A DNA stretch of 64,000 nucleotides, taken from positions 61,730,788 to 61,794,787 of the forward strand of contig CM120640.1 in NCBI GenBank assembly GCA_051362555.1, read 5' to 3'. Positions within the stretch are counted from its first letter, which is position 1, and every line of letters starts with the position of its first letter. The DNA comes from Lingula anatina (lineage: Eukaryota; Animalia; Brachiopoda). Under the pieces are notes generated by a model that saw only the letters and a program-made list of their open reading frames with translations, had not been told where the DNA came from and made no database searches. Positions 5,699-44,611 of the stretch are shown here, piece after piece. A program made the position numbers and the translations under genes.

Positions 5699-8600
5699 AT
5701 GACTAAGCAGTCGAATACAACTCCAACTCGTATGATGTCGTTGACAAGCATTTTAGTGCTGGTTTTTGGAGTCCTCCAAATCAGAGGAGAGGAAATGTCT
5801 CCTTTTTCAGACTCACTTTCGGACGTTTGTGCCGTCAGACCTGGTGGCAACTTTAGCGCGACTGAGAACCAGGTAGGTGAATGAAATGAGCACTACTGTA
5901 AATCTGTCGCCGTCAAACGAGTAGCTAGTGATGGCTTTAGGTCTTAGTCAGAGAAAAGTTTTAGTAGACTGTGATTTCAGTGCAGTGTCCATAAAGGCCA
6001 ATTTTAAGCTGACCAACTAATTTTCAAAAGGTGACTCATTTCTAGCTACACGCCGCCGTGTGTTCTATGCGTGTCAGACTTACATGCGTAAATATGGGTC
6101 ATCAGTCAGCTAGCTGAATTTCAAATTCGTATTGGCGCCCTGGAATTTTCGAATAGATTCAAGCGAAAATAACATAGGTGGGTAAACAGGCTTACTCATC
6201 ACAATATGTGCCAAGTCTTTACCAGTTTAACAGCATCATATTCAAGGTATCAGGCAGTAAATATGTCTTTTACTCAAAGGCTGTTTTATATTAATTAGAT
6301 TTACCTCTACCATCGAGCATCAGACTATAAAGTAACTTTACAATGCTTTCTCAGGGCAGCAGGCGATTTTTGTGTAATATGGGTCAGCACAAAGAGTTTG
6401 TTCTTATACAGAATCCCTTTAGATATGCCTGTTTCCCGAATTTGACAGAAAAACATCTTTTATGTCGCTTGTTTATCAATGCGCTGTAATTAAGAACTGT
6501 TTTATCTCTTCAAGGGTTAAGTGCTCAATTAGACTTGCTTTTGATGTGAACAGTTATTTATGCAAAATCATTGGCTGCGAAGAATAAATAATGACTATAT
6601 TCCTGACTGTCACAATTACCGACTGACACCTTACAGGTTTCATGATCACGTGCGTGACTGGGTACCGCACAGTGTGAAGACGAAACCTCGCGCTCAATGC
6701 TACAGAAATTATCCTTGAGGTATTAGTTTGGCCCACATAACATAGACAGATAGACATCTTTTTGACCCGTGTTGAAAGTTACGTATGAAAGCACTCCTGA
6801 TTCATAATCATTTTAACGTTACCATTTTTTCTTGAGGGCTGAAATATAAACATCTTAGACACATGTAACATGAGAACTACCGCACACTAAATATTTAAAT
6901 CGCCTTCGTTCAATTAAAATTAACACGTAAGTTTAAAACTTTTTTCACGGCGGTACGCGTGTGACGTGTGTTGTTTTGGTTCGCTTTGCGTTTAACAGAG
7001 GCGGCTCCTTGTAAAAACATATTCTCGAAAGCGCTTCATTTGCTCACCCGGCAAATACGGACTAACCTATTCATGTTTCTAGCAAGATATGAACTCGCCA
7101 AAAAGACAGGAAAATGACTAGAAAATGCAGTTTGCTCTATAAATTATCTCGCGTGTAACTTTATTGGACCAAGGGTACATGCTGTCAAATGTATATGTTG
7201 AAAGGGTGGTGCCATTCTCATATTTATCAGTACATGTGTTGAATTAACAGAACCTGGCGTAAGATTATATCCTTTAAGAATTCCCTTACTTTTTGCGTTT
7301 GACAACGACCCTAAGTCAAATGTATCTTTATGTCAAAATACCGTACATGGTGACATATTTCCTTCTGAAATGTAAGAAAGACGTATGGCGTATAAAGAAG
7401 TTACTTTTAAATAAGAAATGAATTAAAATCAGAAAACCAAATGCGGGGAAATGAATTCCGAGTAAGAGAAAAGTGCTTTTTATCTATATGAATTATTTGT
7501 GAATGACTGGCTAGTCGCTTAGACCGCCATGTCATCCAGTACATATCAGACAGAAAAATCGGCACTGCGTTCTTTTATTTGAGGAGTTCGTCGTTTGTAG
7601 ATCTGAATTGGGTAAGATATGTAGTTTTGCAAGATACGTAAAAAAATATAATTATGCACATTTTGAAACGGAGATGGTATACATTCGATTACATATGATA
7701 CAAAACATCATATCAAAGTACAGGGGCGGGTCCAGCATACCCTGAGCGTCAGAGCAACGTAAAAGCTAGCTTGCTAAATATACCTTGTGGTGGAGTCGCT
7801 TTTATTGCTAGTATGGGTTATATATGAAATCAAGATCGAGCTGGCAATACCGGAATCTAGAACCTAGGGTAGTCCAGCAATGATTCGTGAGAGAAGAAAA
7901 TAGTTTTTTCTCGAGGCAAATTAAGTGAGATATATTTAAAATAATATCTACAATCAGTTGTACCCACCTGTATTACAAAAATAACATTACAATAGCATTA
8001 CAAAAATAACATGTTACGTTTTGAATTAAAAGCTGTGTTTATTTGCAGAAGCTTTTGGTTTGTGATTAGGACTAGTTCTTGTGTTCTACAGAGTGGCGTT
8101 TGAAATTGACGCTGTATAGATTTACACTACTTTGTTTTTCAGCAAGCGTTCAACTTTACTTTCGATCACATTCCAAGTTCCGAAGTCGTCCTCTTCGAGT
8201 CGGTCGCCATCAAAGAAAATTGTAAGGGTTACTGTCTATTTTAGTTTTTGCCTTTTATAGTATACGTTTTGCATTTACAGTTATATTTTCATGTAAAATA
8301 CGGGGAAGGTGGGGAATTTTACGAATATTTGTTCATTTTATGGGTTAGTTTGTGGAATTTCAAACAAAACATCACACAGTACCAACTCCAACCTTTGGTG
8401 TCCAGTTAAAATTAGTCTGTGTGAATAAAAGACTACTTTCCGAGTTTCAGAGAATAGAGTGGACTGTGGAATGATTTGTTTTATTATCTTAATTTTATCA
8501 GGTTCCATGGACGTATACATTCAAACGAACTTCTACCTGCCCATTGTCACCAGTTTGGCACAAGGTGAATGTAATTATCTTTCACCCGGTTTTCAAGGAA

Positions 8601-11600
8601 GCCATTTGCTTGTGTTTAAACTGCTGAAGGGCGCGTCAGTGCCACCGCCTTCCAATGCATCAGCCTACCCATTTTCAGTGGACGTATGGGGGACAAATAA
8701 CGCCCTCTTTCAAGTTGAGGTTCCTTCATTTGGCGTCAACACCCGTGTGAGCTGCACAATAAAACTCGGATTTAATGCGTACGAGGCGTCATTTGAAGTT
8801 GACGTTTTGGGTAAGCATTTGAAAAGCAAACCAATAGAGTGAAAATTATTTATTAGGCAAATAAGAACAAATCTGAGCGATTTAAAATTTAGTTTGGTTA
8901 TTTCACGAACTTCTTAGGTCCCTTAAGTAATACGATGTAATATATTTTTATGATGATACACATTTATACTGTTATTTATTATAGGATGCCCTACAAACAA
9001 ATACGGAAGATATTGCAACAAAGACTGTCCTAAGTGCAGTAACGATGGCTACTGTCATACTTTTTATGGCACTTGTGTCTGTCCTAAGGGATGGAGTGGG
9101 CAATCTTGCGAAACTTGTAAGTATTACTTATATTAAAAACTTGCACTGGAATTTGAATTTTCAAATATTTAAAGGTTAAGTCCGCGTTTTGCATTTCAAA
9201 ATGAACCAAAGTCATGTGCACATTTTTATGTTTTCATGTCCTGCAAACTACTTATCTCTTCCAATTGACATCTTAAAAACAATAAAATCCCTCAAATAAA
9301 AGAACCTGATGTCGATATTTCCTTCTGAAATGTACTGGAAGACATGATCTTCTGATTGACGTATTTTTTTCCTGAATTTAGTGGCACCAGTCTTGACAGT
9401 TAACTCTACAGCAAATGATGTAATTAAACTGAACGAGAGCGTTATATTTGAGTACAACATACTCCCCCTATCTCTGGAGAACAATCTGACAATCAAATGG
9501 TTGATAGACGGAGAAAATATTTCTGAAGTTGGAAATATTATTTATAGGATGAGTAACAGGTGAGACACCTTTAATTGTCCAAGGACAGTCTTAACGCTAC
9601 CGAAGTTCATTTGAAGATTTTTGCATCTTAGCAGCAATTCTTCCATTGCCAACAAATTTTGAAGAGAAGTTATTTTATTGCTCGCTGTAAGTGTCACTTA
9701 TCTGAAATATCAGTGTGGAATGAATGTGCAGAGCACGTCTAAAATCTGAATTTTGCCATTTTGGTTTCCAGGTCCATCGTTTTTTCAAAAGGAATAAACA
9801 AAACAGGGGAACATTATGTTACGTGCATCGCAACAACTAAAACAGGGCATATAGTGTCTGCACGTTATTCATTTTATGTCGAAGGTAAATAGGATATTTC
9901 TGTAATTATGATAATGAAAATTAATACATATTTATTCTGTTAAAATACAATTGTGATTTTGGAAGAGTTTGTTTTACAATAAGACAACTAACCAAGTCTT
10001 TCTTTAGTAGCTAGGTGTTAAATTAAGAAATAAATCGAGAGAAATGTAAAAAAAAAGAGCTTAACAGCGTAGATAGACCCATCATTTCTATGCAACATCA
10101 TAAAGTTCTTTGACAAAAATAGTTCTTTGATGTTTATTTATATTTTTCCGTTCAAGATTATAACAGTACCACGGCTACAATAGTGACAGCTACAGCAATG
10201 ACAACAGTAGTTGGTAAAATTCAACAAAATAACGACGTACTGATAGCCGTTGTGGTCATCTTATTGGTCGCACTAGTTACTGTCATCATCATCGCTGCTA
10301 TTGTCATAACTCACAAGATGCGAGGCTCGGCAACAAGAATATTCAGGCCATCAGATATGTATGCTGAATACCACACATATTTACAGGTATTGAATGTTAG
10401 TTAATTACATATCTTTAATTATTCAATATCCTTCAAACGCTGAATGCTCTTTCAATCCAAGAGAAATGATATGTCAAACAGCCACGTTTTAAGAAACTGA
10501 ATTAACCATATCATACCAACATTGCATTGTACACTAGATATGAAATGGCAAAAGTTTCACAAGTAAATACACACAAACACACACTTACATGACAAATGTT
10601 ATTATATTGCTTCTCTTGGCATGTCTGCGTTAAAAATATTGGTAAAGGGGAATGAAATAATTTTTTCTTCATTCAACAGCTAATATTGAGATTACCTATT
10701 TCGATGTCTATCAGTACATCTTCATCAGGGAATTGGTAAAGGGGGTTTGTGTGTGCGAGAGGGAGACTTCATAACCAGTTAAATGAAAAATATTTTCAGA
10801 ATATTTTCTCTGGTAATGAAGATGCGTCTGCCTTGGATGATCAAGAGTACCTTCTGCAGAAATGGCGAGTACCAAACAACGAACTATTTATGGGTGAAGC
10901 ACTCGGCGAAGGGGAATTCTCCCAAGTATTCAATGCTCACATACAGTGGAAACAAACACAAATGCTGCATGTGGCTGTAAAAATGTTGAAAGGTACCATT
11001 TTTGCTCTTTTTAAAGATACATTTTACTTTAACCAAAAGCATTTTGTACATCGGTTTGATGAAGAATGTAAATCACCTTTAAGTAACGTTGACAGTATGC
11101 TTATTGGGTGACTTGAATTGTTCAGGAAATACATGTACATGTGTATAAGTGGCAGTGCTCGAGAGTGAAGATAGGTGTTCTTATTCGAGTGGTCTTTTAT
11201 TCCAGAATTTTTAAATATTTCTGGATGACAGCATGTTTGTAAGTCTGGCTGCTGCAGATTCCTATCATTACAATTCCTGAAGCTCGTTAAAAAGTGGTGA
11301 AATGCGTGAATTTGTATGAATGTGGCCTTGGCACCAAAAATGGAATTAATACACTTTCCCCTATAGATCCTAAGAACCTGCAGTCACAGAAGGATTTGAT
11401 GGCGGAGTTCCAAACCCTCTCCGAACTCTGTCCCCACCCAAATGTGGTGCAGCTCATAGGCATGTGCAACAGGAGGTTTGGAAATGATGGTAAGCTACTT
11501 CTGTTTATTAAGGATAAAAACAAAGTGATCGTTTTCTTACATATGAGCCGCAATTGTTCTTATTTTAATGCAAATGCGATCGTAGTTAGAGGAATAAATG

Positions 11601-11665
11601 GGGCTTAAGTAAATGGGTTAGAAGTGAATTAAATCAGTTTGTGGGATCCTAGATCTAAAGTCTGA

Positions 11666-11737
<72 letters not shown>

Positions 11738-14555
11738 TGCATGTAAAGCGTAATAAGGAAGTAATCCACACAATTTCCATTAACCAAATTTGCTGTTTCG
11801 ATTGGTCGTTCTGAAATTATCAAATTACTTCCTGATGCGGAAGAGACTTTTTTTCTGTTAATGTCATATTGAGTTAGGAAATAAAGGAAGTAGATGTTCA
11901 ACATACAGTATCATTTTTTTTTTACATTTCGTAATAGTTCCTGCATGTCTGAAAGATGTTTTTAGATGTAAATGTACGTTTTAATGGATACACTATTCCT
12001 GCCTTTGTTTTAAAATTATCAAAATGAATTTGAGCATGCTGGATTTTTAAGCAATTCTCTAATCATGTTTACCGTTGGATCAATTCACTTAATTGACTTT
12101 AACTACAGACTACTGGTGTCTGGTTATGGAAAACATGGCTGGCGGAAACCTGAAAACATTGCTGCAGGACATTAAAGATGGCGTGGAGTTGTCTGTAAAA
12201 CCTAAGAACGTGTCTCGTATTGTGGTGGACATTTTGGCAGCTATGAAACATTTAGAAGAGAAGAAGGTGAATTTCCTTGAATTAAATACGTTTTTATTTT
12301 GATATCTAAAATTTAATATTAATTAGGGCCCAGCACAAGAATTTTGTTCTGTGGAAAGAAAACACAATCTTTCTTTTTTTTCACCTCCTATCTTAACAAA
12401 AATAATGTAATGATTGTCATAAAAGTCGTTAATTATAAGTGTCATAAACGTACAATGACAACAAAAATGATTTTATGTGCTAATTGTTTTCAAACCCCTT
12501 CATTTACAGGTGGTGCATAGAGATTTAGCCGCACGGAATGTTTTATTGACTTCTGACCTGAGAGCAAAAATTGGAGACTTCGGACTGTCCCGAGACACCT
12601 ACCTGTGTGGCAACTACAGAATGGCTGACAGCCACGGAAAGGTTAGTTTTGCATTTCTTCTGGTTTTCAGTTTCACGAGTAAATGCAAATCACTTGCGTA
12701 ACATACCTGCACGATCCTTCATTTATACCTATAAAATTGATGTTCGATTAAAGACATTTGCACGAAGTCGTTCTCGAGTGAAAGAGAAAATGTTTGTATT
12801 ACACGTTGTTTGTATTTTTGTTTGTATTTTTGTGTTGGATTCCCTTTCCCTGCTTTGTGGGACCTTTTCTGTGTGTTTAAACTGAAACTTGTTTTTGCTT
12901 GTTAAGTTAAGAAGCAGGCAGTGAACTGAAACCTCAAGCTTCAGTTGCTGCAAGGAGTTATAACAGACTCCTTGGTTGCTGCTTCTCTCTATTATAAAGC
13001 CTAGCGCGTTTTGTTAAATGTATTTCGTATGAATTGCAGAGGTTGCCTTGGTATTGGATGGCCATTGAATCCATGGAGAAAGGAGAGTTTACATCAAAGA
13101 CAGACGTGTAAGGAGATTTAAGATCAGTGACTTCAACAAAGGAAAGTTTGGCGTAGTCAAACGACATTTTATGGCGACAACAATCCTCAGAGCTTAATTA
13201 CGCACATGTGCATTCTGCACATGCTCAATTGTGCCCTAGAGGGGTAATCTCCATTGAGGCACATGTTGCTACTTATACCATGGGGCATCACTGCCTGGCC
13301 TCATTCTGCTACTGTAGATTACGTATATAACGTAATTATGAAACATGTAATTTCATTTACGCTCATAAGCCTGATATCACATAAGTGTGATAATAGGTCT
13401 AGATATATATTTCATGTATGTATAACACAAGTAGTTTAGAGGGCCTGTAAAATGTACTGAAACATTTTAGTGCTCAATAAATTATAATTATTATTTTTAT
13501 TATTATTATTATTATAAAATCATGTTTTACTCTTTCAGGTATAGCATGTTTATAGAGTGCATAGGCCTAATTCATGCTGTTTGTTTTTTCAGTTGGGCCT
13601 TTGGTGTCCTGCTGTGGGAGATTGGCGCGCTAGGATCTCTGCCATATCCAGGAGTTGATCCGGTGGACCTACTTGGTCTGTTAAATAAGGGATACCGGAT
13701 GCAAAAACCAATTTCCTCTTCAAACGTAAGCTTTCATAGAATTAAAGTCATGTTCTGCGTATGTTGAACTGTTACATTAATACTAAATGTATTTTCACCA
13801 ATTTTTCCCAAAATTTAAAACTTATATTAAATCAGATAAACTATAAATTTAACATTGTACACTATCTATAACACTGTCATTGTCATAAGGAAAAAACGAT
13901 AATTTCTTCTGAGGTACGGGTTATCATAGTACAAGTGTTACGGCATTAAATTCAAAATTGCCAGATTTTATACTCTGATATGTATTTCATAAGTGATTGA
14001 AATAGGTTTTTCATTGTTCACTTACCTGCCCGTGCTATTTTTGTCTACAGGAATGGTTCGCAATCATGTTGGAATGCTGGGAAAAAAATCCGGACGGAAG
14101 ACCAACATTTAGCAGCCTTTATCATCATTTCAAAGAAATGCACACATCCAAAAGAGTAAGCTTGCTATATACAAACTTATATATATATATATATAATGGT
14201 TTTAAATATTCAAATGAACACCAGTCATTTTTATCGTCTTTAAAGTATTTTGTTTTGAGCTTGTTATATATTAAAAAATTCTAAAAAGAGAGCATTAACA
14301 TACGACGTGTCCTGGTTAAACTGTATGCAAGAATTCGGGAGAAATTTCGGTTGTCACCCACAATTAACATAGGTGCATAGAGCCACAGCAAAGTGTGCAT
14401 TGGATAAATAACCATCAACGGTATTAAAATTTATTCTTCTTTTTTAGGGATTTCCGCATCTCACTGCGAGTTCCCCGCAACAGGTTGAAGATTCGTACCT
14501 TACCCTTTTGCCAGCTTCACCAGGCTCCAACATAGGGGAATCACACGAAGTTTGA
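5699..14555 (+). CDS. Tie-like receptor tyrosine kinase, copy 1. Exons 5699-5872, 8143-8221, 8502-8810, 8985-9116, 9382-9559, 9772-9884, 10157-10386, 10800-10992, 11367-11489, 12109-12266, 12510-12641, 13040-13107, 13593-13725, 14051-14155, 14448-14555
   Basis: Hydrophobic signal peptide; EGF exon [44 protein letters not shown] with Tie EGF1-like Cys spacing; [27 protein letters not shown]; kinase motifs [53 protein letters not shown]...P..RPTF; exon phases compatible throughout. Confidence 0.92.
11670..11732. repeat. (TA)n microsatellite
   Basis: Direct reading. Confidence 0.95.
13143..13260. repeat. Dispersed repeat fragment, also at about 18498-18570 (direct) and 18655-18740 (inverted)
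   Basis: CGTAGTCAAACG.CATTTTATGG.GACAACAATC and GCATTCTGCACATGCTCAATT shared. Confidence 0.7.
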
Positions 14556-15547
14556 TGTAATGCGACTGCTATAATAAAATAGCATCCTGAAAAATGCAAA
14601 ATAATGCAAAAGGACTGTAAATAATGAATTTTTCTTATGTAAAAAGTAAACGTTTTTATGGCAATGATTGAATCAATGATAAAAAGATGTAAAATGATGT
14701 ATAACAATACATACTTCAATGTTCAAATACCCATGAGAAAATGTATCCAACAGTTATCAATATTTTGGATGATATGTACATAAATAGGTAGGCACAATAC
14801 AAAAAATACCCGGTGACGTCACTTGTATGCATGTGGTTTTCTTATAAGATAAAACTGAATTATCAGTAACCTTGTTTAGTTTGTAAAGTGCCATATTCGT
14901 TTTGCTTATATTACGTTCCACTAACACTGCCACTGTGGTCCCTTTATTTGCTTGTGGACGGAGGGGGTAGAGATGGGGCGGAAAGAAAGGTTATAAAGAT
15001 AACATACATTTGTTCACTATTGTTGAGATTTGTTTATTGAGAAATAATTAGGATCAATGAAGTAAGTCAATCTGAAGTCATTTTGCATTGAGCACATATG
15101 AGAGTGTGACCTGTTGAACGCACTTAACACAATCCCCGTCGTAGGGCCTACACTTTGTCATCAGACTGTTTACAATATGCATTCAATCCGGTTTCATATT
15201 GCTAACCATTTAGTATAATTATTGACATAGTATGATTATAATTTAACATAATTATTATTTAATAAATTATGTTGAAGATCCAGTTAGGTGGCGATACAAG
15301 ACATTTTGGACAAAAATGGGCTGTTTCTATTAGAGAAAAGTACATCTTTAGAGAAAACTACATTCTCAGCGTAGTGACTTTAGCTAACGGCACACTCGGT
15401 CGTCACCTTGATTGGTTGTTTAACTAGTGTTTTAGAATCGCCATAGAATTAATTAACCGTGGATAAACCTAAAATCTACATAAAATTACTTTAGACTTCC
15501 ATACTAATCTACCATGAAAACCTTCTTTTGTTGTCTCTTTGGTGGTT

Positions 15548-15661
15548 TATAGGGATTTAACGACATTCGATTCAAATGCTTAACCAAAATTGATGTTACT
15601 ATTTTATAGGGATTTAACGACGTTCGATTCAAATGCTTAACCAAAATTGATGTTACTATTT
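15548..15661. repeat. Tandem duplication of a ~57-bp unit
   Basis: TATAGGGATTTAACGAC(A/G)TTCGATTCAAATGCTTAACCAAAATTGATGTTACTATTT present twice. Confidence 0.9.
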
Positions 15662-15899
15662 TATTATTTCTATTTATCATTATTATTTTTGCGTTATGGT
15701 AGACTGGCGATTTCACGACACTCGTTTAGTAGCCAATCAAGGTGGCAGTCTAGCCTCTATGTATATTGTGCCAGTTTTGCTTACTACAGGGCGAAAACGA
15801 AATTATTGTTGAACACATCCGAGATCGTTGCACTAGGTGTGAATTACCTTTTCATTGGGATGACTTACGTAGTGCCCATGAATATCGTTCATGCGACAC

Positions 15900-16083
15900 C
15901 GATGAAAATTGTTTTCTAACAACTAACAATTTTTATTTCCTCTCAACTTAACCCGCTTAGATGTGTCTAACGTCAACGTTCACGTTGCACAACGTCTCCC
16001 GCGCGTGCCGTCACTTCACACCGTCAGCGACACATTTGATTTCAACCAATAACATCCAGACTTAAATCATCGGTAGGTAACAG
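15900..16083 (+). promoter_or_regulatory. Conserved non-coding block upstream of RTK copy 2; putative promoter or 5' UTR exon, with paralogues at about 16720-16880 and 27530-27715
   Basis: TGTTTTCTAACA..ATTTCCTCTCAACTT..CCGCGCGTGCCGTCA..CACACCGTCAGCGACAC; copies at 16075 and 27706 end in GTAG|GTAACA, a donor-like site. Confidence 0.5.
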
Positions 16084-17115
16084 ACGATAGATAACTCAGT
16101 CTTGCATTTACTGTGATAGACTTTAAACAAAATACGGTTCTCGACCTTGTAACCTAAGATCTAATATATCCGTTTATTACATCTTAGTTGTAACGAATGA
16201 CTAAAGAGGAGTATTTTTAAAAGAAATAAAACGGGCCATGGGTTGTGTAATTGATTAAATCCGAATGCGTCTAAGTTACACAGAAGTGAAAGCAAACAGA
16301 ATGTTCACAGACCTGTCACGGAAGCCTGCCGATACGTTGAGTCCAACAAACACAATCTCCGTCCAGTATCATTATTTCACTGGGTTTTTAATTCCTATTG
16401 CAAACCATTCAAATCAGCCTTTCTGCAAACCCACATAATTACTTTGTATGTAACGATTTACCATAAAAATTTTGTCTCGCTATTTTAGTACTCTCATCAA
16501 TCATTGCAGATCAACATCTTCATTAAATTTCGTAAATGATATTACTTATATATAGTAAGCATTAATAAAAGGGCCCTTAACAGGCCAAATATCAATCAGT
16601 CTAGAGAAGTTATTTCGTCAATACATTCTTATACTATAGAATGCATCTTAAGAGAAGACAATAAGGTAGTAATATTTGCTAAGGGCTTTATGCCTATCGT
16701 GTGCTTATGCTCATGAGATACCGAGAACTGTTTTCTAACAGCCAACATCATTTATTTCCTCTCAACTTTACGCTCTTCAGCTGCCAACGTTCACTTTGCA
16801 CAACATCGTCCGCGCGTGCCGTCTACTCACACCGTCATTGACACAGCTGATATCAACAGATAAAATACCAGACTTCGATACATTGCAAAAGAGCCCTGGA
16901 TTTTATAAGTGGTTTTATCTTCTTATTTTAATCTTCCTATCTTAATTTATTATCTATCGAATGCTTCTTTATACGGAAGTGACAGTAAGCAGAATGATAA
17001 AGCATGGCTTATCAAGGACCTGCCACGAGCACCTGTCTACATGTATTTAAAGGGACGTTTTACATGATACTTTTTAGAGTTGTCTTCCGTCTTGTACTGA
17101 CTTATCAACAATCTT

Positions 17116-18167: not shown

Positions 18168-18215
<48 letters not shown>

Positions 18216-22442: not shown

Positions 22443-22482
<40 letters not shown>

Positions 22483-25081: not shown

Positions 25082-25141
<60 letters not shown>

Positions 25142-26385: not shown

Positions 26386-28011
26386 ATAGTCTCCAAAATG
26401 GAGGAGTCACGCAAAATTTGATGTAACGTGACTGATATAATTAAAAAAAAACATTCAAAAAATAATTGCAAAATAATGCAATACTAATTTTTTTATTATG
26501 TGTAAAAAGTATATAATTGCATGGCAAATAATGAATGATCTATAAATACATATTAAATTATGTACATGTATAAACATACTGTATTTCAATATTTAATACC
26601 CCATGAGCAAATTAATCCAATAATTAGCAATATATCTTATTATTGTTTTGAATTAATTGTACAGAAATAGGTGGGCACAGTATAAAAATACCTGGTGACG
26701 TCACTTGTATGCATGTGCTATTGTATTAAGATAAAACTGAATTATCACTAATTGTGTTTTGCTTTAAAGAGCCAGATTAATTTTGCTTTTTTCCCTACAC
26801 TGTGGTCCCTCGATTTGCTCGGGGTCGGATGGGGGGAGGGGGGGGGGGCGAAGAGAAAGGCTATGAAGATGGCATACATTTCTTCACTATAAAGAAGAAA
26901 ATTTTTTGTTTAGAAATAACTTGGATCAATGAACCTGCATTCGTTTTGCATAGGAATGTGATCTTACACAGTACCCGCCCTATACCTCATCAAGCTTTCA
27001 GTCCGGTCTCAAATCGCGATATCCATTAACATGATTGATATTATTTTAAAAACCCATTTAGGTGGCTATACAATACAATGCAATGCAATACAATACAAAG
27101 ATGGGTCGTTCCTCCAAGGGAAAGTGTATTCAGTGTGACGGTCTTTAAAAAGTCGATTATGTGTCACTTGTATTGTGTTTACAAGGCGAAGGTTGCTGAA
27201 AACATCCGAGAGAGGTCTACCATTGCGCTAGGTGTGCATTAAAGGCTACTTCTTTATTAAGACGTTTTTATTAAGACCGGGAAGTGCCTTCACTACCTAT
27301 AAGACTTGTATTTCAACTAAAAAACTTTCTTTCTGACTTTATTATAGTTCAACTAAGCATTATGCCTTATTGCTTAATTTTGTGGCAATATGGCAAGTCA
27401 CCTTACAAAGAAAATTGCGCTCGAACGTATAATACGGTATAAATTATCCCATGTAATTACTAGTATGTAAGTGGCTTTAAGGAACATAAGTTGTCTTTAT
27501 GCTTATCGTTCATGCGCAAGCGACGTCGAAGACAACTGTTTTCTAACAGCCAACACCATTTGTTTCCTCTCAACTTTACCCTCTTAGCTGTGTCTAAATC
27601 ATGTAAATCTAACATTCACGTTGCACGTCGCCCGCGCGTGCCGTCACCTCACACCGTCAGCGACACAACTGATATCAACTAATAAAGTTCAGATATATAT
27701 CATCCGTAGGTAACAGAAATTTCAGTGCTGCACTGATTTTGAAAAATAAGGAAGTTTCCTGGTTCTTGACTATTAAATTTATGATTTAAAAGAGTGTTTG
27801 GAAAGGACCCTGGTTTTGCTTTTATAAGTCGTCTTATCTTCTTATTGATTACTTATTGAGTGTTGTTACACAGAAGTGAAATTAAGTTGAAAGATAAATC
27901 GCTGCCTATCAAAGACCTGCTGCAGAAACTTGCCTATTTAAAGGGGCGTTTACACGACCCGTTTTTACAGTTGTCTCCAGTTCCGACTTGTTTCGACTTA
28001 TGAACAACTCT

Positions 28012-31000
28012 ATGAACATGGATAGTTGTCTTCGGAGTGTCAAAGATCTGCTGTTGCTGATGACCTTTCTAGTTTTAGTCCTCGGGACTTTCGTCGCCGG
28101 AGGGGAAGAAATGTCTTCTTTGTCAAACTCTCCATTAGCAGTTTGTGCCGTCAGACCTGGAGGCAATTTTAGTGCGGCTGAGAATCAGGTGAGTAGAATG
28201 ATATATTTTGTCCGTGTGGTAAGATCATCGTGTGGTATTTAGTAAGATCATGTCGTCGTTCCAAGAAGTGCTGATACGATGATGCCTTATATAGGCCTAC
28301 TGCACAATAAGTCTCAGATGAATCACTTCTTAGCGGTACCCCGAGGTTCAGAGTATGACACTAAGAGAACATGAAACCGTTATTTCGTTCAGAAAAATCT
28401 TTATAATTATGCAGCTAACCCTGATTATTCTATATCATCACATGCCAGTTTTACACATTGTCAAAATGTGCTATTTTAAAAGTGAAATGAAAGAGTAGGT
28501 CCTATGTCACACAAAGTACATCTATCATACTAAGTACATGTATTTTTTAATGTGTCTGAAAGTTAAAAGTAATTAACCTTATCCTCCAGAATACACTGAA
28601 CCTTACTGTGACCAAGCTTCCTAGCAACACGTTCCAGTTCAAAGAGTGGGTTGTCATCAAACAAAATTGTAAGGATGTACGGCTTGTCCGTTTTCATATA
28701 TATTCATTTAAATAAATAAAACCATGAAATGTATCGTAAGCAACGCAATTTTAAGTCCACACACTTGAATATTAAACTCTACAGAATTAATTTAAATTTA
28801 AATTATTGTTTTTCTTTTTATTTAAATGAAACTCTTCTCTCATCTACAGAATTAGTAAATGATTTTTCCTCTTAGAATTAAGTCAGAACAAAACAACATT
28901 TTCTTGTCGAAAACAGTACAATAGGAGGGTTTATGATGCACCCCAGTATATCATTATTTTTGCTTATTTCAGGCTCTATGGTCGTATACATACAAGCTGC
29001 ACTATACATCCCCGTTGATCCCTCTTTAGCACATGGACTCTGTGGTTACGCTTCCCCCAGTCTCCAAGGCCATCTTCCATTTCCATTTCAATTACTTAAG
29101 GGAGGCCCAGTTAGCCCACCTGAAGATGCACTGGCCTATCCGTTCCCTGTGAGTTTGTGGGGGTCAGGAAACTCAATCTTTGAAATATCAGTTCCCATGT
29201 TTGGAGTCAACACACCAGTGAACTGCTCCATAACATTCGGGTTTTCATCTTTTGAGGCGGCATTTACTATTAACGTTCTAGGTGAGTACGTTCTAAGGGG
29301 CAGACCGTGTTCGTTGAACCGACTAATTTGGGTGTCCGATAAGGATTGTTTGGGGAGTCCCCTACCCTGTAATTATCATACGGCCTCTATTGTTCGACCA
29401 TATGGGGCAGGGTTGGGAAACCATACGGCCATTTGGTAAAGGGACATTCCGGCGGCACTGTAGATGTTCGAAAATTAAAAGCTATCTTCAGATTATTGCT
29501 TTAGTGAAGAACAGGGACACAGTTGATATACTTATTTCTTTTTTTATGAAATTCGGTATCAATTAGGAGTGCCTTTTTTCTTTTTCATTAACTGTGAATT
29601 TTTATCAGTACGAATTTTGTGGGTGAAATGATGTTTTTATACACAGTAAATATACATTTACATGTATGTATGCAAAATAATGTTCTAAATATTGTATATT
29701 GTTTAGTCTAGTTTAGTCGATGCTATTTCACGATTGCCTGCAATAAATGATTCTAAATGAGTGGACTCTGTGTGTAATATTTTTTGAGCAACGGGTAAAA
29801 CCCGAAAACGTGTATCAGTACAAAAGATGCTTACATGACACAAAATTAATTAGAGAAGGCTTTGGTGGAATAAATGTCGCTTATCCGGTAATTTGATAAA
29901 CTTTCAACACTGATAGGGTGTCCTGAGAACAAATACGGAAGATACTGCAACAAGAATTGTCCTCGGTGCAGTATCGGTGGTTATTGTCATACATTCTACG
30001 GAGGTTGTGTGTGTCTCAAGGGATGGAGTGGCGCAACATGTGACAGAGGTCTATTGATTTTTTCATTGCATTTCCTGTTCCTTTTCTTTAATTTTTTTAG
30101 TAGACGGTCCTTGTAAAGAAAATAACAATTCTTCATTGCATTGCGACTTAATTTATCATCATATTTAACCACTAACTATATTTTATATAGCAATGCGACT
30201 TAGATTGTTAATTATTGTTGTTAATTCAAAACTTTTTGATAAGGTCGAACAAATATCCTAGAGATTTCAAGTTTTACTTCTACTTTCATAACGGTATTTA
30301 TTATCTGAATTCAGTGACGCCAATGTTAGAGATCAGTTCTTCGGCAAATGGTGCTGTTAAACGGAACGAAAGTGTCCAATTTGATTGTGATATTTTCCCA
30401 TCTTCTCTGGAGACCAATACAACCATCAGATGGTTGATGAACAACCAAAAGATATCAGACGTTACAGACGTTATTCATAAAACGAGCAACAGGTACGCCT
30501 TTTCGAATGTTGTAATAGTACATATCCCTTACTTTTCTGCATTCTTACTATTGATGAAATTTTATGCTCATTGAAAGCTTAACTACTTATCTGGAATTTT
30601 GAAAAATGAGAAGTCGAATATGCTGTAATCTAAACATTAATATTTAATTTTCAGGTCTATAATTTTTTCGAAAGGAATACACACAATAGGAGATCAGAAT
30701 GTCACATGCATCGCTTTAACTGCTTCTGGACAGATATTGTCTAAAACATACGCTTATTACGTAGAAGGTAAAGCTGCGTGAATACGAAAAAAATTCAAAT
30801 AGACTATTTTTGTATTTGCAAGAACAATAATTATTATATACACACCAAATTACCGGAAAAAAAGACCGACAGCTTAATTTTCAATGGCGGATTTAATTTT
30901 GTAGATCATCAGGGGGAGGGGGTAGATTATTCTGTTGCCAGGAGCTTTATTTTCACATTCGTGATGTCAAACAGCACAGATTTGATGGTTGTTCATTGGT

Positions 31001-34000
31001 GAAGTGTCTGACAATAAACACTTGATTGTTACCTTTTCTGTTATAAGTCTATATATAAACATTTCGTTTACATTGAATTATAAATGGATTGAGTCTTTGT
31101 CGTACAATTGTAAAATTCTCTTTTGTACCTCCTTTAATTGAGCCCATTATATATGTATATATTCCATTCAAGATTATAACACTGAGACTGGAATAATGAC
31201 AACTGCAGCAATGGCAACATTTATTGGTGGAGGTCAACAAATTAATAACGCACTCATCACAGTTGCAGTCATCTCATTGGTCGTGCTGATTGTTGTCATC
31301 ATCATTACTGCTCTTTTAACTCACAAGATGCGGGACTCGACTAAAAGAAAATTCACGCCATCAGATATGTACGCTGAATACCACACATACTTACAGGTAT
31401 CAATTTTGAGATAGTTCTGAATGTTCTGTTTGCGACAGTGAAATTTGATTGATATCGTCTTTCCACCTTATTACAATACGCCAAAGAGTTTATTCTGATT
31501 GCATGTGGAGTGTCATTTCTACTTTGCCCATCTTTATAAAGCACATTAAAATGAATTTCTTTCAAAGAATATTGTATTTGCATCTGCAAAAAATAAAAAA
31601 TAACGATAATAGAAAAACAAAAAAGGGCATTACGGTGGAAAGAGAGGAAACATTTGAAGGGAAGTAGGACGTGGATATAGCTACACTGCAGTGGCGGATT
31701 TAGAGGGGGGTCAGGGGGGTCCTGACCCCAACTTCGATTTCTGATCCCCTCTTGTAATTAAAATTTTGACTAGCTGAATCATAGTTCTAAGCCGTACAAA
31801 ATGGCACCGTTCGCCATCTTTAATACCAAAAATTTCGGGGCTCTTCAGCGGGCCCCAAACCCCACCACAAAAGGGGTGGGGGTCGGCTTCGCATCTGCGA
31901 ACCCCCCTTCAAATAATCCTTGATCCTGTATGACTGTTTGACTTTAATCATCTTATTCATTTTTCCATTTTCAGAATATTTTCATAGGTGTTGAAGATAA
32001 TTCGTTCTTGGATAACCAAGAGTACCTTCTTCAAAAATGGAAGGTGCCAAACAACGAACTATTTATGGGCGAAATACTCGGCGAAGGGGAATTCTCCCAA
32101 GTATACAATGCTCGCATTGAATGGAAGCAGAATCAAATACTGAACGTGGCTGTAAAAATGCTGAAAGGTGAGTATTCTTGACAATAGTGCTTATGGTCTC
32201 TTCAAGTATGGAGATTGTGTTTCCTCGGAATACTAGCTATTTAAATGCAAGGGAACCCCCAGAAATACCTTATTTTATTGTATTTCTCGTGGTACAATGT
32301 ACCCATTGTCTTAAAAAAAAAGATGAATTGTAACAGCTTAAGCATTTTAAGAAATTTTTATTCTTTGAAGTATAAAGAGATTATCAGGAGAGAACAAATT
32401 ATCATTTATATTGTAGGATTCTGATTTATTTAAAGATTTTAATAGTTTCCCAAACAGCAATTTTTAAATACAATCTCTTTGTCTCTCACGCACGCATGCA
32501 AAGACATACACATACACGTTCATGTACAATGTTCAAGAACGTTGAACTCCCAAGACGTACGTACATGTACGTTGTGTATATTGATAATGCTGGCATTTTG
32601 TCTCTTTTAGACCAATAAACTTAATATATGCACATACAGTGTACATGCGGTGCCTTTATATCTTGGCTTTCTTCGTTCCAAATGTGCTCATGAAAAATAG
32701 CATAGGTACTGACCTTATGATGTGCCGAGTTAGTTGTGCATCGAAAAACTCACCAAATCGGGGTGAGATGTTTTGTGAAAAAGAAACAACATACCAGAAT
32801 CATCAACCTACTCAGCGTACCGCCGTCCTAGAAGTTCAACCCCCTTGCTCATGGATGGTTAAAATTGCTCTCGTTGAGAAGTTTTGATTAAAGTTGGTCA
32901 CTGAGCTGATTACTGATGAATAGTATATAAGACGAAAAGTACACTTTTGGCAGTTTTATAAACATGGATTACATAGAACTTAAATAGAGACACGGAAGAT
33001 TAAATATGATTATAAACCGATATCATTTGTTACCTGTTTTTATTCTGCAATAAATCACATCCTCAACGAGGAAGCACGACGCTGTAGTTGAGATAAGAGG
33101 CTCGAATTCGTGAACTAACAACTCCTTTTGATCAAGTGCAGAAGTTGTTTTCCTGGTAGGAAAAGATGGAGCTTGTGAAAGTCACTTCGATTTGATTGGT
33201 TGATTTCTCAATAGATTTGCAAGTTTCTGGCACGTGCTAAACACATGCAAACTAAGGGTGGATATGGTCCAAGCATGAGTAATTCAAATAATATTTAAAT
33301 ATTTTAAATTGAAAACAAGTCTTCTAGAAATTACTTAATAAGGAAATATTGAATGGTTGGATGCAACGTGAGAATGGAAAATTCCACAAGACAATGGAGA
33401 GAAAACAATGTGTGATCGGTATCAGAGTAATACAGTATGAATAATTGTGAATTTGCATGAGAGAGTCAGTGAATAAATGTATGAAGCTCTAGATCGTCAT
33501 TATTGTCACTATAACAAATCTTTACTTCCCTGGCCAGTATCTGCCTTCTTGTAAAAGAGAGAGGAAAAATGATACGTAGGCTGGTGTTTTAGAGTGCATT
33601 CCCATAGATTTAGATCGATCTATCCGGATCGACCTAACTCCCTGGAGGTCCACGCTAAATTGCAGTCAGCCTAGCGCGCACGACAGTTAATTACCCCCTT
33701 ACAGCTTTTAGTAGGCGGGACAGGCGCTTAAGCCGGCTAAGCTGACAGTAATCTAGTGAGACTCCCCACAGGGATAGATCGATAAAAAATCTGTGGGAAT
33801 GGGGTCTTAGAAGTTTTATAATGATTAGAGAACCACTTAAGCTGCCTAATATATTGTAAGCTTGTTACAACTCGTTACAAGCTCGTTACAACATGAATGG
33901 CATCAACAAGTAAATAAGCACTTTTTAAAGTTGCACATTAAGCGTTAGACGTGATAACGAAAAAGATAAAAATGACTTTATGGCTTATTTTGATCTGATA

Positions 34001-37000
34001 TAAAATGTACTTGCTTTCTTTCGGCGCATTTGGTAAAGTAGGCCCACAAAGAAAAAAAACTATGATCCGTTAAAAAAATTTTTGATGTTTGATTGAGTAC
34101 TATTTGTAGCAGCATATGTTCTCGGATAATATTTTTTTGTTTTGACAAATGTTATGTAGAACCCTGGCTTTTATTTCGCCTTTGTCGAAGACCAAAGACC
34201 AGGTGGAGGGTCGACCTCCACCACCACCATCTTAGACCCACCTGGCCAAGCCAGGAAGATGACCGTTACCGATGGAGACAGCTCAGGGAGGGATTCCTCT
34301 ACCACGGAGCAACAGTCGGCCCTGGATTGATTGTCATAATGTCTACTTTACCAAATATATTCTATGTGCACTTATGAATAGTCTGTAGGTGCGTCTCTCA
34401 TACAAACATATGCCTTTCTCCCGTAGATCCTAAGAACCTGCAGTCACAGAAGGATTTGATGGCGGAGTTCCAAACCCTCTCCGAAATCTGTCCCCACCCA
34501 AATGTGGTGCAGCTCATAGGCGTGTGTACCAGGAGACTCGGAAATGATGGTAAGCTACTTTTACTTTGCCCTCCTTCATTTAGTAAATAGACCTACAAAC
34601 AAATAATAAAAAAAAAAAAACACACACACACAAAAAAAGCAAGATGGCAGAGCTACATGTACCTTTCTCAGTAAGAATATAACACAACGTTTTAGTTAGA
34701 ATAAATACAACCAAGCTGATCCAAACTTTGAGAAGGTGCTCGTGTATAAACAATGTAAAAGGAAGTATTACGGAATGTCCTGTTGACAAAATTTTGTTTG
34801 CGATGATTCATAAAGGAAAGTCGTGTCAATATTTGTAATTACTTCCTGGTGCAGAAAGTTTGTGAAGTAAATATTATTACTCACTTTGAAAACAACTTTG
34901 AAAACTACTGCTAATGTTAATACATTAATAGGCTTATTTATAGAAATATTTTGTTGGAGTGGTTACTTATTCACATGGCAACACTTTTTGATAAATGCTT
35001 TGTCTTACATTGGTGTATGCATTAAAGCTATCAAACGTATTATTATTATTATTATTATTTTATTTTATTTTATATTATTTTATTTTTATTTTATTTTATT
35101 TTTTTTTTTGTGATCGATGATCACTCATATTATGATAACTAATCTAAACGGATTTTCGCCATGTTTACGACGCAGACTACCGTTGCCTGGTAACTGAAAA
35201 TATGCCTGGAGGTAACCTCAAAGCATTACTACATGACTTAAAAGATGGCAGGGAGTCGTCTGTAAAACCTAAAAGCATCGGCCGCATTGCAGTCGACATA
35301 CTGGCTGCAATGAAACATCTAGAGGATCAAAAGGTGAATTTGTTGAAATGCAAAGTTTATTTTGTGAGAAGTGAACATAATCTCGTTCTTTTTCCCTTTT
35401 TTGTAAGCTTTATATATACTTAACAATTTAAGTTTGCAGGACGTGATCAACATTTCCCCCTCTTCCTTTTTCATCATTTAAGCAGAATGTCGTATCGATT
35501 ATTGTACTTCTTTGTTTAGGCCTGTTTGTTTTTTTAAAAAACATTGCTTGTGGTTCAAGCCCCCCCCCCTTCACCTGAAATATTAAAAAGACAATCTTTG
35601 AACTCCACAGAACCATGCTGAATGTATTGTCAATGGTGAAAAACGGCTCAACCCATATTGATCATCCATGAATATTTATCAGTCTTTACTATGGTTATCA
35701 TTTGCCTGCAAATATTACTTTTTTACGAGAAAAGTGAATCTTTTTGAAAAATGACATAAAACAATTGTATATATAGGTGGTGCATAGAGATTTAGCCGCA
35801 CGAAACGTTTTATTGACCTCTGACCTGAGAGCAAAAATTGGAGACTTCGGACTGTCCCGAGACACCTACCTGTGTGGTAACTACAAAATGGCGGATAGCC
35901 ACGGAAAGGTAATTAATTGGTTGTATTTATCTGCATGTATTCTGTTGAATCCCATATGTGACTAAAAGTAAGGTACTTTGAAATATCTAAATCAATCATA
36001 AATTTGTTTTGCTTTAGATTTGTATTCAGCATGTTTTTCTAGTTTTGTTAAAGTTTTGTCAAATGTATTTAATGTGAATTTCAGCGGATGCCTTGGTATT
36101 GGATGGCAATTGAATCCATTGAGAACGGAGAATTTACATCAAAGACAGATGTGTAAAGAGACTTTTTATTATATAAATCGAGCCTTGTTTGTACATGTAC
36201 ATAGCGTATCATATTAGTCTACAGTAATGAGCAAAAAAAAAAAAAAAAAAAAAAAAAGGCCAGTCATTAAATACGATTAATCATAAATGCTTCTTTTGAC
36301 ATGTTTTCATTAATTTTTTACAAAGCAATATATGTTCAGATTAATACATGGATTACCTTCTAAACCGTGGTCTGCACATTTTTTCCGCCCTCTAAGCCTC
36401 CTTTGTGCATTCTGAAATTAGCTAACGTGACTTAAAATATATCGTTACTGTGATTTCAGTTGGGCTTTTGGTGTCCTACTGTGGGAGATTTGCACATTTG
36501 GATCTTTACCATATCCGGGAGTTGATCCTGTGGACCTACTTGGTCTGTTACAAAAGGGATACCGGATGGAAAAACCGATTTCCTCTTCAAAGGTACGCTT
36601 AAAGTATAAAATTTGTTGTCCGGCAAATCCGTAGTAAGTTAAAATGCACATAGACTTGTTTTTCCACAATTTATCCAAGCGTTTTACTGTTTGTTAATTT
36701 TTAACGTACGTCAAATCAAACATGCATTACCTTTTTTTAAAGGAGTGGTACTTTGTCATGACGGAGTGCTGGGATAAGGATCCAGATGCACGGCCGACAT
36801 TCAGCACGCTTTATCATCACTTTAAGGAGATGTACTCTTCGAAAAAGGTAAGCCGTGAACTAGCTAGAAAATTTGAATCGAAAATTAAGAATATACTGAG
36901 ATAGATCAACCCTGCGAGTACGATAACTTCTTTTCTGAACGCTGCCTACATGTATGTCTACCTCGAAAAATACCGTGCTATATTAACAGAATCAACCCTC

Positions 37001-37116
37001 CTTTTTAGGGATTTCCAAATTTCCCGGGGATTTCTCCACAACCGGGTCAAGCAGCATACCTGAGCATGCAGGCAGATTTATCGGCCGTTGATAAGATGGA
37101 ACCTAATATTGTCTAA
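28012..37116 (+). CDS. Tie-like receptor tyrosine kinase, copy 3. Exons 28012-28188, 28590-28668, 28973-29281, 29917-30048, 30315-30492, 30655-30767, 31173-31396, 31975-32167, 34427-34549, 35176-35333, 35777-35908, 36085-36152, 36460-36592, 36743-36847, 37009-37116
   Basis: Same exon structure; [11 protein letters not shown] and VAVK intact; the start could alternatively be the in-frame ATG at 28000. Confidence 0.92.
31689..31932. mobile_element. MITE family B copy in intron 7 of RTK copy 3
   Basis: CAGTGGCGGATTTAGAGGGGGGTCAGGGGGGTCCTGAC start; internal GCTGAATCATAG..GGCACCGTTCGCC; right end degenerate. Confidence 0.75.
33596..33801. mobile_element. MITE in intron 8 of RTK copy 3
   Basis: TIRs CATTCCCATAGATTT..ATCGATCTATCC / GGATAGATCGAT..AAATCTGTGGGAATG. 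Confidence 0.7.

Positions 37117-44570: not shown

Positions 44571-44611
<41 letters not shown>

What the first reader, a model, noticed from the sequence alone, without database searches (positions are those of the whole stretch)
5699..37116. Tandem cluster of compact Tie-like RTKs with variable ectodomains and near-invariant kinases: candidate diversified recognition-receptor family
Seen: three intact 15-exon paralogues. The N-terminal ectodomain exons 2-3 differ strongly ([20 protein letters not shown] / [20 protein letters not shown] / [20 protein letters not shown]), while kinase exons 9 and 11 are almost identical at DNA level. Known: vertebrate Tie1/Tie2 have Ig-Ig-EGFx3-Ig-FN3x3-TM-kinase. 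Here there is one Tie-type EGF, one Ig, no FN3 and a Ser/Thr stalk. Inference: a variable sensor on a common signalling module is typical of immune or allorecognition receptor clusters, and this may be an undescribed lineage-specific RTK family.
Basis: partly seen in the sequence, partly recalled or inferred. Interest (0 to 1): 0.8.

Follow-up and report, generated by a model that had tools for sequence, protein, structure and literature searches.

The report
Brachiopod kinase trio with hybrid gene
Three intact neighbouring receptor tyrosine kinase genes of the brachiopod Lingula; the middle gene resembles one neighbour in its front half and the other in its back half, likely from an unequal crossover, which explains most of the "variable sensor, fixed kinase" look, although the outermost domain of two copies does change unusually fast and an immune role is untested.

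Summary
The three intact 15-exon genes are real and match Lingula anatina RefSeq proteins. The immune reading is only partly supported. Gene B is a hybrid: 5' of exon 9 its non-coding DNA aligns only to C (7 of 9 segments), 3' of it only to A (7 of 7). The near-identical A/B kinases are therefore young copies (dS about 0.15, against about 1.4 in the ectodomain), and exons 9 and 11 look like crossover or conversion tracts; C's kinase is 83% identical. One point survives: exons 2-3 of B and C evolve at omega about 0.95 against 0.35 in the second Ig domain (p=4e-5), but positive selection is not shown (p=0.14, 0.16). Exon 3 is likely a second, degenerate Ig-like domain. A chiton protein groups with the trio (100/98) outside RET and FGFR, so the family is likely old; Tie membership stays open. 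A is expressed, B and C barely, in five RNA runs; DNA contigs show little allelic change. Verdict: an apparently undescribed lophotrochozoan RTK subfamily with a small local expansion, not a demonstrated immune receptor family.

The parts
5699..14555 (+). Gene A, 744 aa RTK. Exons 5699-5872, 8143-8221, 8502-8810, 8985-9116, 9382-9559, 9772-9884, 10157-10386, 10800-10992, 11367-11489, 12109-12266, 12510-12641, 13040-13107, 13593-13725, 14051-14155, 14448-14555. The expressed copy.
17116..26385 (+). Gene B, hybrid (5' half C-like, 3' half A-like), 758 aa from the RefSeq start. Exons 17116/17122-17289, 19080-19158, 19453-19761, 20103-20234, 20508-20685, 20848-20960, 21216-21520, 21889-22084, 23766-23888, 24132-24289, 24526-24657, 25185-25252, 25479-25611, 25952-26056, 26314-26385.
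28000..37116 (+). Gene C, 747 aa from the RefSeq start. Exons 28000/28018-28188, 28590-28668, 28973-29281, 29917-30048, 30315-30492, 30655-30767, 31173-31396, 31975-32167, 34427-34549, 35176-35333, 35777-35908, 36085-36152, 36460-36592, 36743-36847, 37009-37116.
8502..8810 (+). Exon 3 of A (B 19453-19761, C 28973-29281): predicted Ig-like beta-sandwich with invariant Cys108 and Cys169; with exon 2 the fast-evolving part in B and C; likely the ligand-binding domain (inferred)
8985..9116 (+). Exon 4 of A: Tie2-EGF1-like module
9382..9884 (+). Exons 5-6 of A: membrane-proximal Ig domain (Z 11.5, rmsd 2.4 over 90 residues to a CEACAM Ig)
10157..10386 (+). Exon 7 of A: stalk, transmembrane helix, juxtamembrane Tyr cluster (Y397, Y400, Y403)
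10800..14155 (+). Exons 8-14 of A: tyrosine kinase with [15 protein letters not shown] and two activation-loop Tyr (Y594, Y599)
23766..23888 (+). Exon 9 of B: inferred crossover site; intron 8 before it aligns to C, intron 9 after it to A
11367..23765 (+). Inferred duplicated unit, copy 1 (3' half of A, spacer, 5' half of B)
23766..34426 (+). Inferred duplicated unit, copy 2 (3' half of B, spacer, 5' half of C)
20099..20241 (+). 143 bp perfectly identical to 29913-30055 (EGF exon 4 plus edges): likely recent B-C gene conversion tract

Best explanation
These are three intact Lingula receptor tyrosine kinase genes (predicted Ig-like, EGF, Ig, membrane helix, kinase) of a likely old lophotrochozoan subfamily, in which the middle gene likely arose by unequal crossover between its two neighbours, so the matching kinases likely reflect recent copying rather than a selected common signalling module. 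History (strongly supported): an old A-C pair mispaired at exon 9 and gave A, C5'/A3' hybrid (= B), C; short conversion tracts later homogenised exon 4 (B-C), exons 7-8 (A-B) and exons 9, 11-13 (with C). Mechanism (inferred from RTK biology, untested): an extracellular protein ligand binds the N-terminal Ig-like domain, which sits where Tie2 has its angiopoietin-binding Ig2 (role of Ig2 recalled); dimerisation drives phosphorylation of the two activation-loop Tyr; juxtamembrane and tail Tyr recruit SH2 proteins for a growth, survival or differentiation signal. A is likely the main working copy. B pairs a C-type sensor and promoter with an A-type kinase and tail, and since the crossover the B and C sensor domains have diverged at a near-neutral average rate, most simply through relaxed or shifted ligand specificity in two little-expressed copies.
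For: Non-coding homology switches partner at exon 9: upstream B-C 7 of 9 segments, A-B 0 of 9, A-C 0 of 9; downstream A-B 7 of 7, B-C 0 of 7, A-C 1 of 7 (32 bp). Coding sites switch too: 70 AB:255 BC before A residue 370, 131:39 after, chi2 143, 0 of 2000 permutations. Intron identity is alike on both sides (0.69-0.80 B-C, 0.67-0.90 A-B). dS, not only dN, falls in the A-B kinase. A-C exons 10+14 have dS about 1.8, exons 9, 11-13 about 0.22. Chiton P0013 aligns end to end (233/772 identities, E 1e-92) and groups with the trio at 100/98, outside RET and FGFR. Catalytic motifs are intact. A is spliced and expressed in X15 and X18; A-type letters dominate the kinase reads of X16 and X19 while B and C ectodomain bins are 0-0.15 and 0-0.84 deep.
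Against: omega near 1 in exons 2-3 of both B (0.94) and C (0.93) while 42-50% of sites stay constrained is also what diversifying selection on a binding surface would give; three sequences give little power to tell. Coding and non-coding break points differ (exon 7 vs exon 9), which needs an extra conversion event. The N-terminal homology with the chiton is weak: not above shuffles by local HMM, 0.1% by hhalign, supported only by global alignment (z 4.6) and four invariant Cys. Both kinase branches are long, so the chiton grouping could be inflated. No Tie sequence was in the tree. Tissues of the RNA runs are unknown and 6-26% of each run was read, so B and C may be active in cells not sampled. 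No ligand is known.
Confidence: 0.65

Rival explanations
1. One reading: a diversifying immune or allorecognition receptor cluster, with sensor domains under positive selection plugged on a shared kinase.
For: B-C exons 2-3 omega 0.92 vs 0.35 in exons 5-6, p=4e-5; best-fit site models hold a class at omega 2.2-3.0 on 17-31% of sites; the domain is likely Ig-like and distal; recombination and conversion are common in immune clusters (general knowledge). Among rows shown for RNA run X18, gene A carries 4 changed ectodomain codons and 1 silent, against 1 changed and 6 silent in the kinase (40 of 212 rows shown). Sea-urchin Tie and Tie-like genes are elevated in coelomocytes and axial organ (PMC6494969, passage).
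Against: Positive selection not significant (M2a p=0.14, branch-site p=0.16). Only 3 copies in the window and none further in three protein searches. DNA run X2 shows 0 coding differences over A exons 1-6 and B exons 1, 5, 6; X7 0 in C exon 2. No ITAM or ITIM. Kinase sameness is explained by recombination.
Confidence: 0.17
2. They are true Tie orthologues that lost Ig1, two EGFs and the FN3 repeats, and act as receptors for an angiopoietin-like fibrinogen-domain ligand in coelomic lining or blood-cell formation.
For: EGF plus the preceding strand match Tie2 Ig2-EGF1 best in the PDB (E 2.6e-7; next, Jagged-2, 0.012). Atlas first hit for the N-terminal part is an echinoderm cluster with EGF_2 34% and Ig_Tie2_1 12% (score 0.81, lead only). 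Ig-EGF-Ig order as in Tie2. RefSeq auto-names two of three as Tie or angiopoietin receptor.
Against: Kinase scores best against RET (200 bits) and FGFR1 (190); no Tie2 chain among the best 60 distinct PDB sequences for either Lingula A or the chiton protein, nor a Tie-named protein among the best 120 database hits. FN3 repeats and EGF triplet absent.
Confidence: 0.22
3. The hybrid is an assembly artefact: halves mis-joined at the near-identical exon 9, or alleles laid side by side.
For: Exon 9 with edges is a repeat of about 150-190 bp at 93% identity; no listed contig spans the whole cluster.
Against: All halves differ far beyond alleles (dS 0.14-0.40, introns 67-90%). Unique B and C sequence is present in DNA runs X2, X6, X7. 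A discordance-free arrangement needs A5' joined to C3', but X16 holds A-type kinase reads with no B5', C5' or C exon 10 depth, and X15 holds A5' and A3' at similar depth.
Confidence: 0.04

Closest known systems
Vertebrate Tie1/Tie2 (TEK) and invertebrate Tie-like RTKs (sea-urchin SpTie1/2; oyster kinome rows classed TK/Tie)
   Same: [quoted passage not shown]
   Different: One EGF instead of three, no FN3 repeats, at most a 45-aa remnant where Ig1 would be, kinase scores higher against RET and FGFR; P+1 loop reads LPWYW (chiton LPWKW) where RET reads IPVKW.
RET and FGFR
   Same: Highest kinase scores; RET-like activation segment with two Tyr and WMAIES.
   Different: No cadherin or RET Cys-rich domains, EGF present; falls outside both clades.
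Chiton Liolophura sinensis 'FGFR3-like' protein (P0013)
   Same: Collinear Ig-like, EGF, Ig, TM, kinase; four N-terminal Cys shared; kinase 127-132 of 290 identical; clade support 100/98.
   Different: Second EGF where Lingula has a stalk; auto-annotated only; N-terminal homology weak by local methods.
Amphioxus EXTK expansion (D'Aniello 2008; seen only through a passage of PMC3342872)
   Same: Lineage-restricted expansion of an orphan tyrosine kinase family with unknown function.
   Different: EXTKs number dozens per lineage; here three. Paper not held, so membership was not testable.
Anti-Lepore hybrid genes (beta/delta globin; recalled, from no call)
   Same: Hybrid lies between two intact parents, 5' part from the downstream gene, 3' part from the upstream gene, spacer duplicated.
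   Different: Here old and diverged (dS 0.15-0.35), seen in three DNA runs, and it swaps a receptor's sensor and kinase halves.
Invertebrate allorecognition and immune Ig receptor clusters (Hydractinia Alr; recalled)
   Same: Tandem Ig-bearing receptors with recombination and a faster distal domain.
   Different: Only three genes, active-looking kinase, no ITAM or ITIM, no sign of extreme allelic polymorphism in the runs laid.

Membership tests
Tie (TIE1/TEK) | Tie-type EGF after an Ig domain | tested here: met
   Best PDB hit Tie2 Ig2 end plus EGF1, E 2.6e-7
Tie (TIE1/TEK) | Three tandem EGF repeats | tested here: not met
   One EGF exon per gene; chiton has two, separated by an Ig
Tie (TIE1/TEK) | Three FN3 repeats before the membrane | tested here: not met
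   25-52 aa between second Ig and TM; no FN3 in Pfam
Tie (TIE1/TEK) | Two N-terminal Ig domains | tested here: inconclusive
   One predicted beta-sandwich (exon 3, pLDDT 65.5, best Z 7.2, Ig vs FN3-like not resolved) plus a 45-aa low-confidence segment
Tie (TIE1/TEK) | Kinase groups with Tie kinases | tested here: inconclusive
   No Tie sequence was obtainable for the tree; Tie2 not among best 60 PDB hits
Tie (TIE1/TEK) | Binds angiopoietin-type ligand | not testable with these tools
   No candidate ligand sequence in hand
RET | Cadherin-like and Cys-rich ectodomain; kinase inside RET clade | tested here: not met
   No such Pfam domains; outside RET clade of 10 rows, 100/99, which includes a chiton RET
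FGFR | Ig-only ectodomain; kinase inside FGFR clade | tested here: not met
   EGF present; outside the cnidarian and spider FGFR group, 92/88 (no vertebrate FGFR in tree)
Active protein tyrosine kinase | VAVK lysine, HRD, DFG, activation-loop Tyr | tested here: met
   All present in A, B, C; third Gly of the Gly loop is Ser; activity not assayed
Anti-Lepore-type hybrid gene | 5' half from downstream neighbour, 3' half from upstream neighbour, both parents intact, spacer duplicated | tested here: met
Diversified immune/allorecognition receptor cluster | Positive selection on the sensor domain | tested here: inconclusive
   omega about 0.95 in B, C exons 2-3; M2a p=0.14, branch-site p=0.16
Diversified immune/allorecognition receptor cluster | High allelic polymorphism or many copies | tested here: inconclusive
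   Three copies; few coding differences in listed contigs of 3 DNA runs, but B exons 2-3 and C exon 3 were not inside listed pieces, and contigs drop variants
Diversified immune/allorecognition receptor cluster | ITAM or ITIM in the tail | tested here: not met
   All intracellular Tyr contexts listed; none fits the recalled ITAM or ITIM consensus
Diversified immune/allorecognition receptor cluster | Immune-cell or challenge-induced expression | not testable with these tools
   RNA runs carry no tissue labels
EXTK (amphioxus) | Kinase inside EXTK clade | not testable with these tools
   Paper and sequences not held

The most novel reading that the evidence does not exclude
A lophotrochozoan Tie-derived receptor family whose distal Ig domain reads fibrinogen-domain proteins (the fold of angiopoietins and of many invertebrate immune lectins), so that coelomocytes signal through a kinase when such opsonins bind; in Lingula an unequal crossover created a new sensor-kinase pairing and the B and C sensors are diversifying under selection.
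Probability: 0.1. Interest if true: 0.75.

Novelty: new variant of a known kind. Interest (0 to 1): 0.36.

Why it matters
It flags an orphan RTK subfamily shared by a brachiopod and a chiton that automatic annotation splits among three wrong or unproven names (Tie-1, angiopoietin receptor, FGFR3). It is a clean natural case of sensor-kinase shuffling by unequal crossover with the break point still readable in the introns. It is also a caution: 'variable ectodomain, constant kinase' in tandem clusters can come from recombination, so dS and introns must be checked before an immune role is inferred. If the distal domain proved positively selected and coelomocyte-expressed, it would be a rare kinase-active innate recognition receptor.

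Tried and rejected
No whole genome was held, so copies elsewhere in Lingula were tested only through protein databases. Ectodomain searches found only the trio: 2 cluster representatives among 1391 and among 3433 candidates; HMMER over 1.84 billion representatives gave 4 hits, P0002 and three bacterial repeat proteins, rejected as summed weak matches. The chiton homologue was missed by all three and found only through the kinase, so these blanks do not show lineage restriction. Of the 25 other proteins scoring above 215 bits, I checked 10 and all held two kinase domains; 15 were not checked. tblastn found no further copy in the window. The full-ectodomain model was poor in the N-terminal part (pLDDT 54.8) and its fold searches reported mainly the second Ig. 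The exon-3 model matched Ig-like, FN3 and filamin sandwiches at Z up to 7.2 with no Foldseek hit at E 0.001; Tie2 was not listed, which excludes nothing. An alignment of exon 3 with the whole chiton protein was misaligned and not used, so the exon-3 fold rests on three close sequences. hhalign and local HMM did not detect the N-terminal chiton homology. No RNA holder was listed in the index; raw runs were laid instead. RNA run X12 showed next to no gene A reads. Seven literature searches (listings only) showed no paper on this locus or subfamily; most subscription papers are not held, including D'Aniello 2008 and Lapraz 2006. The P+1 motifs were not found in a kinase in 12 of 26 Lymnaea supplements; 14 were not searched. 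Look-ups of earlier findings by place and sequence were empty. Pseudokinase reading rejected: motifs intact. No complex prediction was run: no candidate ligand.


Full report
1. What is in the sequence. I built gene models from the window. Three + strand genes, A (5699-14555), B (17122-26385) and C (28018-37116), each have 15 exons, GT-AG at all introns, the same phases and an open frame. Protein searches returned the same products from Lingula anatina RefSeq, auto-named angiopoietin-1 receptor, FGFR3 and Tie-1; A differs from its record at 1 of 744 residues, B and C at none over the compared length. tblastn shows no fourth copy in the window; no whole genome was held.

2. Domains. Exon 4 is an EGF whose best PDB match, with the strand before it, is Tie2 (E 2.6e-7). 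Exons 5-6 fold as an Ig domain (Z 11.5, rmsd 2.4, 90 residues). Exon 3, a phase 1-1 exon of 103 codons, is predicted as a beta-sandwich (pLDDT 65.5) with only generic matches to Ig-like, FN3 and filamin folds (best Z 7.2). Atlas neighbours are mostly Ig families, all under the 0.9 bar. Cys108 and Cys169 are spaced like the B and F strand pair of an Ig (recalled), and the chiton homologue keeps a recognisable Y-x-C F-strand motif there. I read the ectodomain as short Cys-linked segment, degenerate Ig, EGF, Ig, stalk; the Ig call for exon 3 is likely, not shown. The kinase has all catalytic motifs and two activation-loop Tyr. No ITAM or ITIM consensus (recalled) is among the listed Tyr contexts; the tail Tyr reads YLTL in A, YLTI in B and YLSM in C.

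3. The kinase sameness is mostly history. Over exons 8-14 A-B are 92% identical, A-C and B-C 83%; over exons 2-6 B-C are 72%, A-B 53%, A-C 54%. The tree therefore flips along the gene. Synonymous divergence flips with it: A-B dS 1.39 in exons 2-6 and 0.18 in exons 8-14, with omega 0.26 and 0.21. Of 495 coding sites shared by B with only one neighbour, 70 AB:255 BC lie before A residue 370 and 131:39 after (chi2 143; 0 of 2000 permutations). Non-coding DNA is sharper: of 9 segments 5' of exon 9, B-C align in 7, A-B and A-C in 0; of 7 segments 3' of it, A-B align in 7, B-C in 0, A-C in 1 (32 bp). The spacers A-B and B-C are homologous. This is the pattern of one unequal crossover between an old A-C pair, with the break in exon 9, giving A, C5'/A3', C (anti-Lepore type; name recalled). 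The coding break lies earlier (exon 7), which needs a later A-B conversion of exons 7-8. Other tracts: 143 identical bases over exon 4 in B and C (chance about 1e-4 on silent sites alone), and A-C dS about 0.22 in exons 9, 11-13 against about 1.8 in exons 10 and 14. Mis-assembly is unlikely (see rival 3).

4. What survives of the sensor idea. With my own GY94 implementation (not PAML; three sequences; exon sets chosen after seeing the per-exon table), B-C exons 2-3 give omega 0.98, not different from 1 (p=0.95), against 0.33 for exons 5-6 and 0.19 for the kinase; the contrast with exons 5-6 has p=4e-5; branch values are A 0.33, B 0.94, C 0.93. Counting gives 0.82 (CI 0.49-1.36). Positive selection is not significant: M2a vs M1a p=0.14, branch-site p=0.16. 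Relaxation and diversifying selection both remain possible.

5. Expression and polymorphism. Five RNA runs from three studies were laid, 6-26% of each read, tissues unknown. B ectodomain bins are 0-0.15 deep outside repeats in all five; C ectodomain bins are 0 in X16 and at most 0.84 in X19, outside a repeat bin. In DNA run X2 the contigs over A exons 1-6 hold 6 differences, all non-coding, and those over B exons 1, 5, 6 none; X6 none over B5-6; X7 none over C2. B exons 2-3 and C exon 3 were not inside listed pieces, 172 and 175 rows were not shown, and contigs drop variants. RNA run X18 is more divergent; among shown rows it has 4 changed and 1 silent ectodomain codons in A and 1 changed and 6 silent in the kinase, a weak hint of a faster ectodomain among animals.

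6. Relatives. Ectodomain searches found only the trio. The kinase search found chiton P0013 at 261 bits, above every Ret- or FGFR-named single-kinase hit listed after it (215 or less). It aligns end to end with the order Ig-like, EGF, Ig, EGF, TM, kinase. Its EGF matches the Lingula profile at 22 bits (shuffles 7.9); its N-terminal domain is not detected by local HMM or hhalign but is by global alignment (z 4.6, 0 of 3000 shuffles, best of 171 control windows -1.3 against 15.3; limits taken from the alignment itself). In an IQ-TREE tree of 36 of 38 chosen kinases (two split RET domains dropped), trio plus chiton form a clade at 100/98, outside RET (100/99, with a chiton RET) and FGFR (92/88), in the same larger group. 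No Tie could be included. In the PDB the kinase scores best on RET and FGFR, and Tie2 is not in the best 60. So the family likely predates the brachiopod-mollusc split, and only the three-gene cluster is local.

7. Literature. Passages seen: PMC4898815 (Tie/FGFR/RET/VEGFR/PDGFR group; Tie duplications in sea squirt and/or amphioxus); PMC3342872 (EXTK expansions of unknown function); PMC6494969 (sea-urchin Tie and Tie-like genes high in coelomocytes and axial organ); PMC4883820 (oyster kinome, a Tie gene switched on near metamorphosis; two TK/Tie rows of its supplement); PMC8662651 (holozoan classification, no mention of Lingula or molluscs); PMC11589774 (snail RTKs, two unassigned; 12 of 26 supplements searched). 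Seven searches listed nothing on this locus; D'Aniello 2008 and Lapraz 2006 were not held and may bear on the family's name. Two earlier scan notes on Ig pseudokinase clusters describe a different design and were not tested.

8. Verdict. Shown: three intact paralogues, the partner switch in B, expression of A, faster change in exons 2-3 of B and C. Inferred: unequal crossover at exon 9 (about 0.9), chiton orthology (about 0.8), Ig nature and ligand role of exon 3, ordinary ligand-driven RTK signalling. Untested: ligand, tissue, immunity. Best explanation 0.65; Tie orthologue 0.22 and immune diversification 0.17 are not exclusive of the crossover history. Novelty: new variant of a known kind. 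Interest 0.36.

Noticed in passing
window 43327-47014 (+): Multi-exon cytosolic sulfotransferase gene (Pfam Sulfotransfer_1, E 1.1e-21 and 7.4e-8 for two exon ORFs).
   Followed up: partly
window 48489-51961 (-): 3' end of a gene with a transmembrane exon (51707-51961 ORF) and two related terminal exons (in ORFs 50722-51132 and 48489-48779), 34 of 80 residues identical, E 3e-21, each ending in a stop; no Pfam family. Alternative last exons or a duplicated intracellular domain of unknown family.
   Followed up: partly
window 52468-52794 (+): ORF that looks like a GIY-YIG endonuclease fragment of a Penelope-type retroelement (resemblance recalled, not tested).
   Followed up: no
window 9382-9559 (gene A exon 5): Gene A lacks the first Cys of the membrane-proximal Ig that B and C keep, leaving Cys309 without its usual partner.
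   Followed up: no
window 13040-13107, 25185-25252, 36085-36152: Unusual P+1 loop: Trp-Tyr where RET has Val-Lys; the chiton keeps the Trp with Lys, and unnamed Ig RTK P0037 has Trp-Arg. May alter substrate choice.
   Followed up: no
window 37009-37116: Gene C's tail Tyr is a YxxM motif (PI3K p85 consensus, recalled) where A and B have YxxL/I, so outputs may differ.
   Followed up: no
window 7737-7871, 17750-17950, 22600-23160, 31689-31903, 33590-33810: Very high-copy short repeats in introns (contig depth 1e4-3e5), probably MITE or SINE-like; inverted copies at 73-234/46150-46311 and 63078-63205/63848-63976.
   Followed up: no
window 5300-21700, run X18: Most reads are only 90-99% alike to the window, unlike X15: a more divergent population or a cryptic species under the same label.
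   Followed up: no
window 360-2460 (-): Several stretches that look like minus-strand exons of a divergently oriented neighbour gene, seen by eye only.
   Followed up: no
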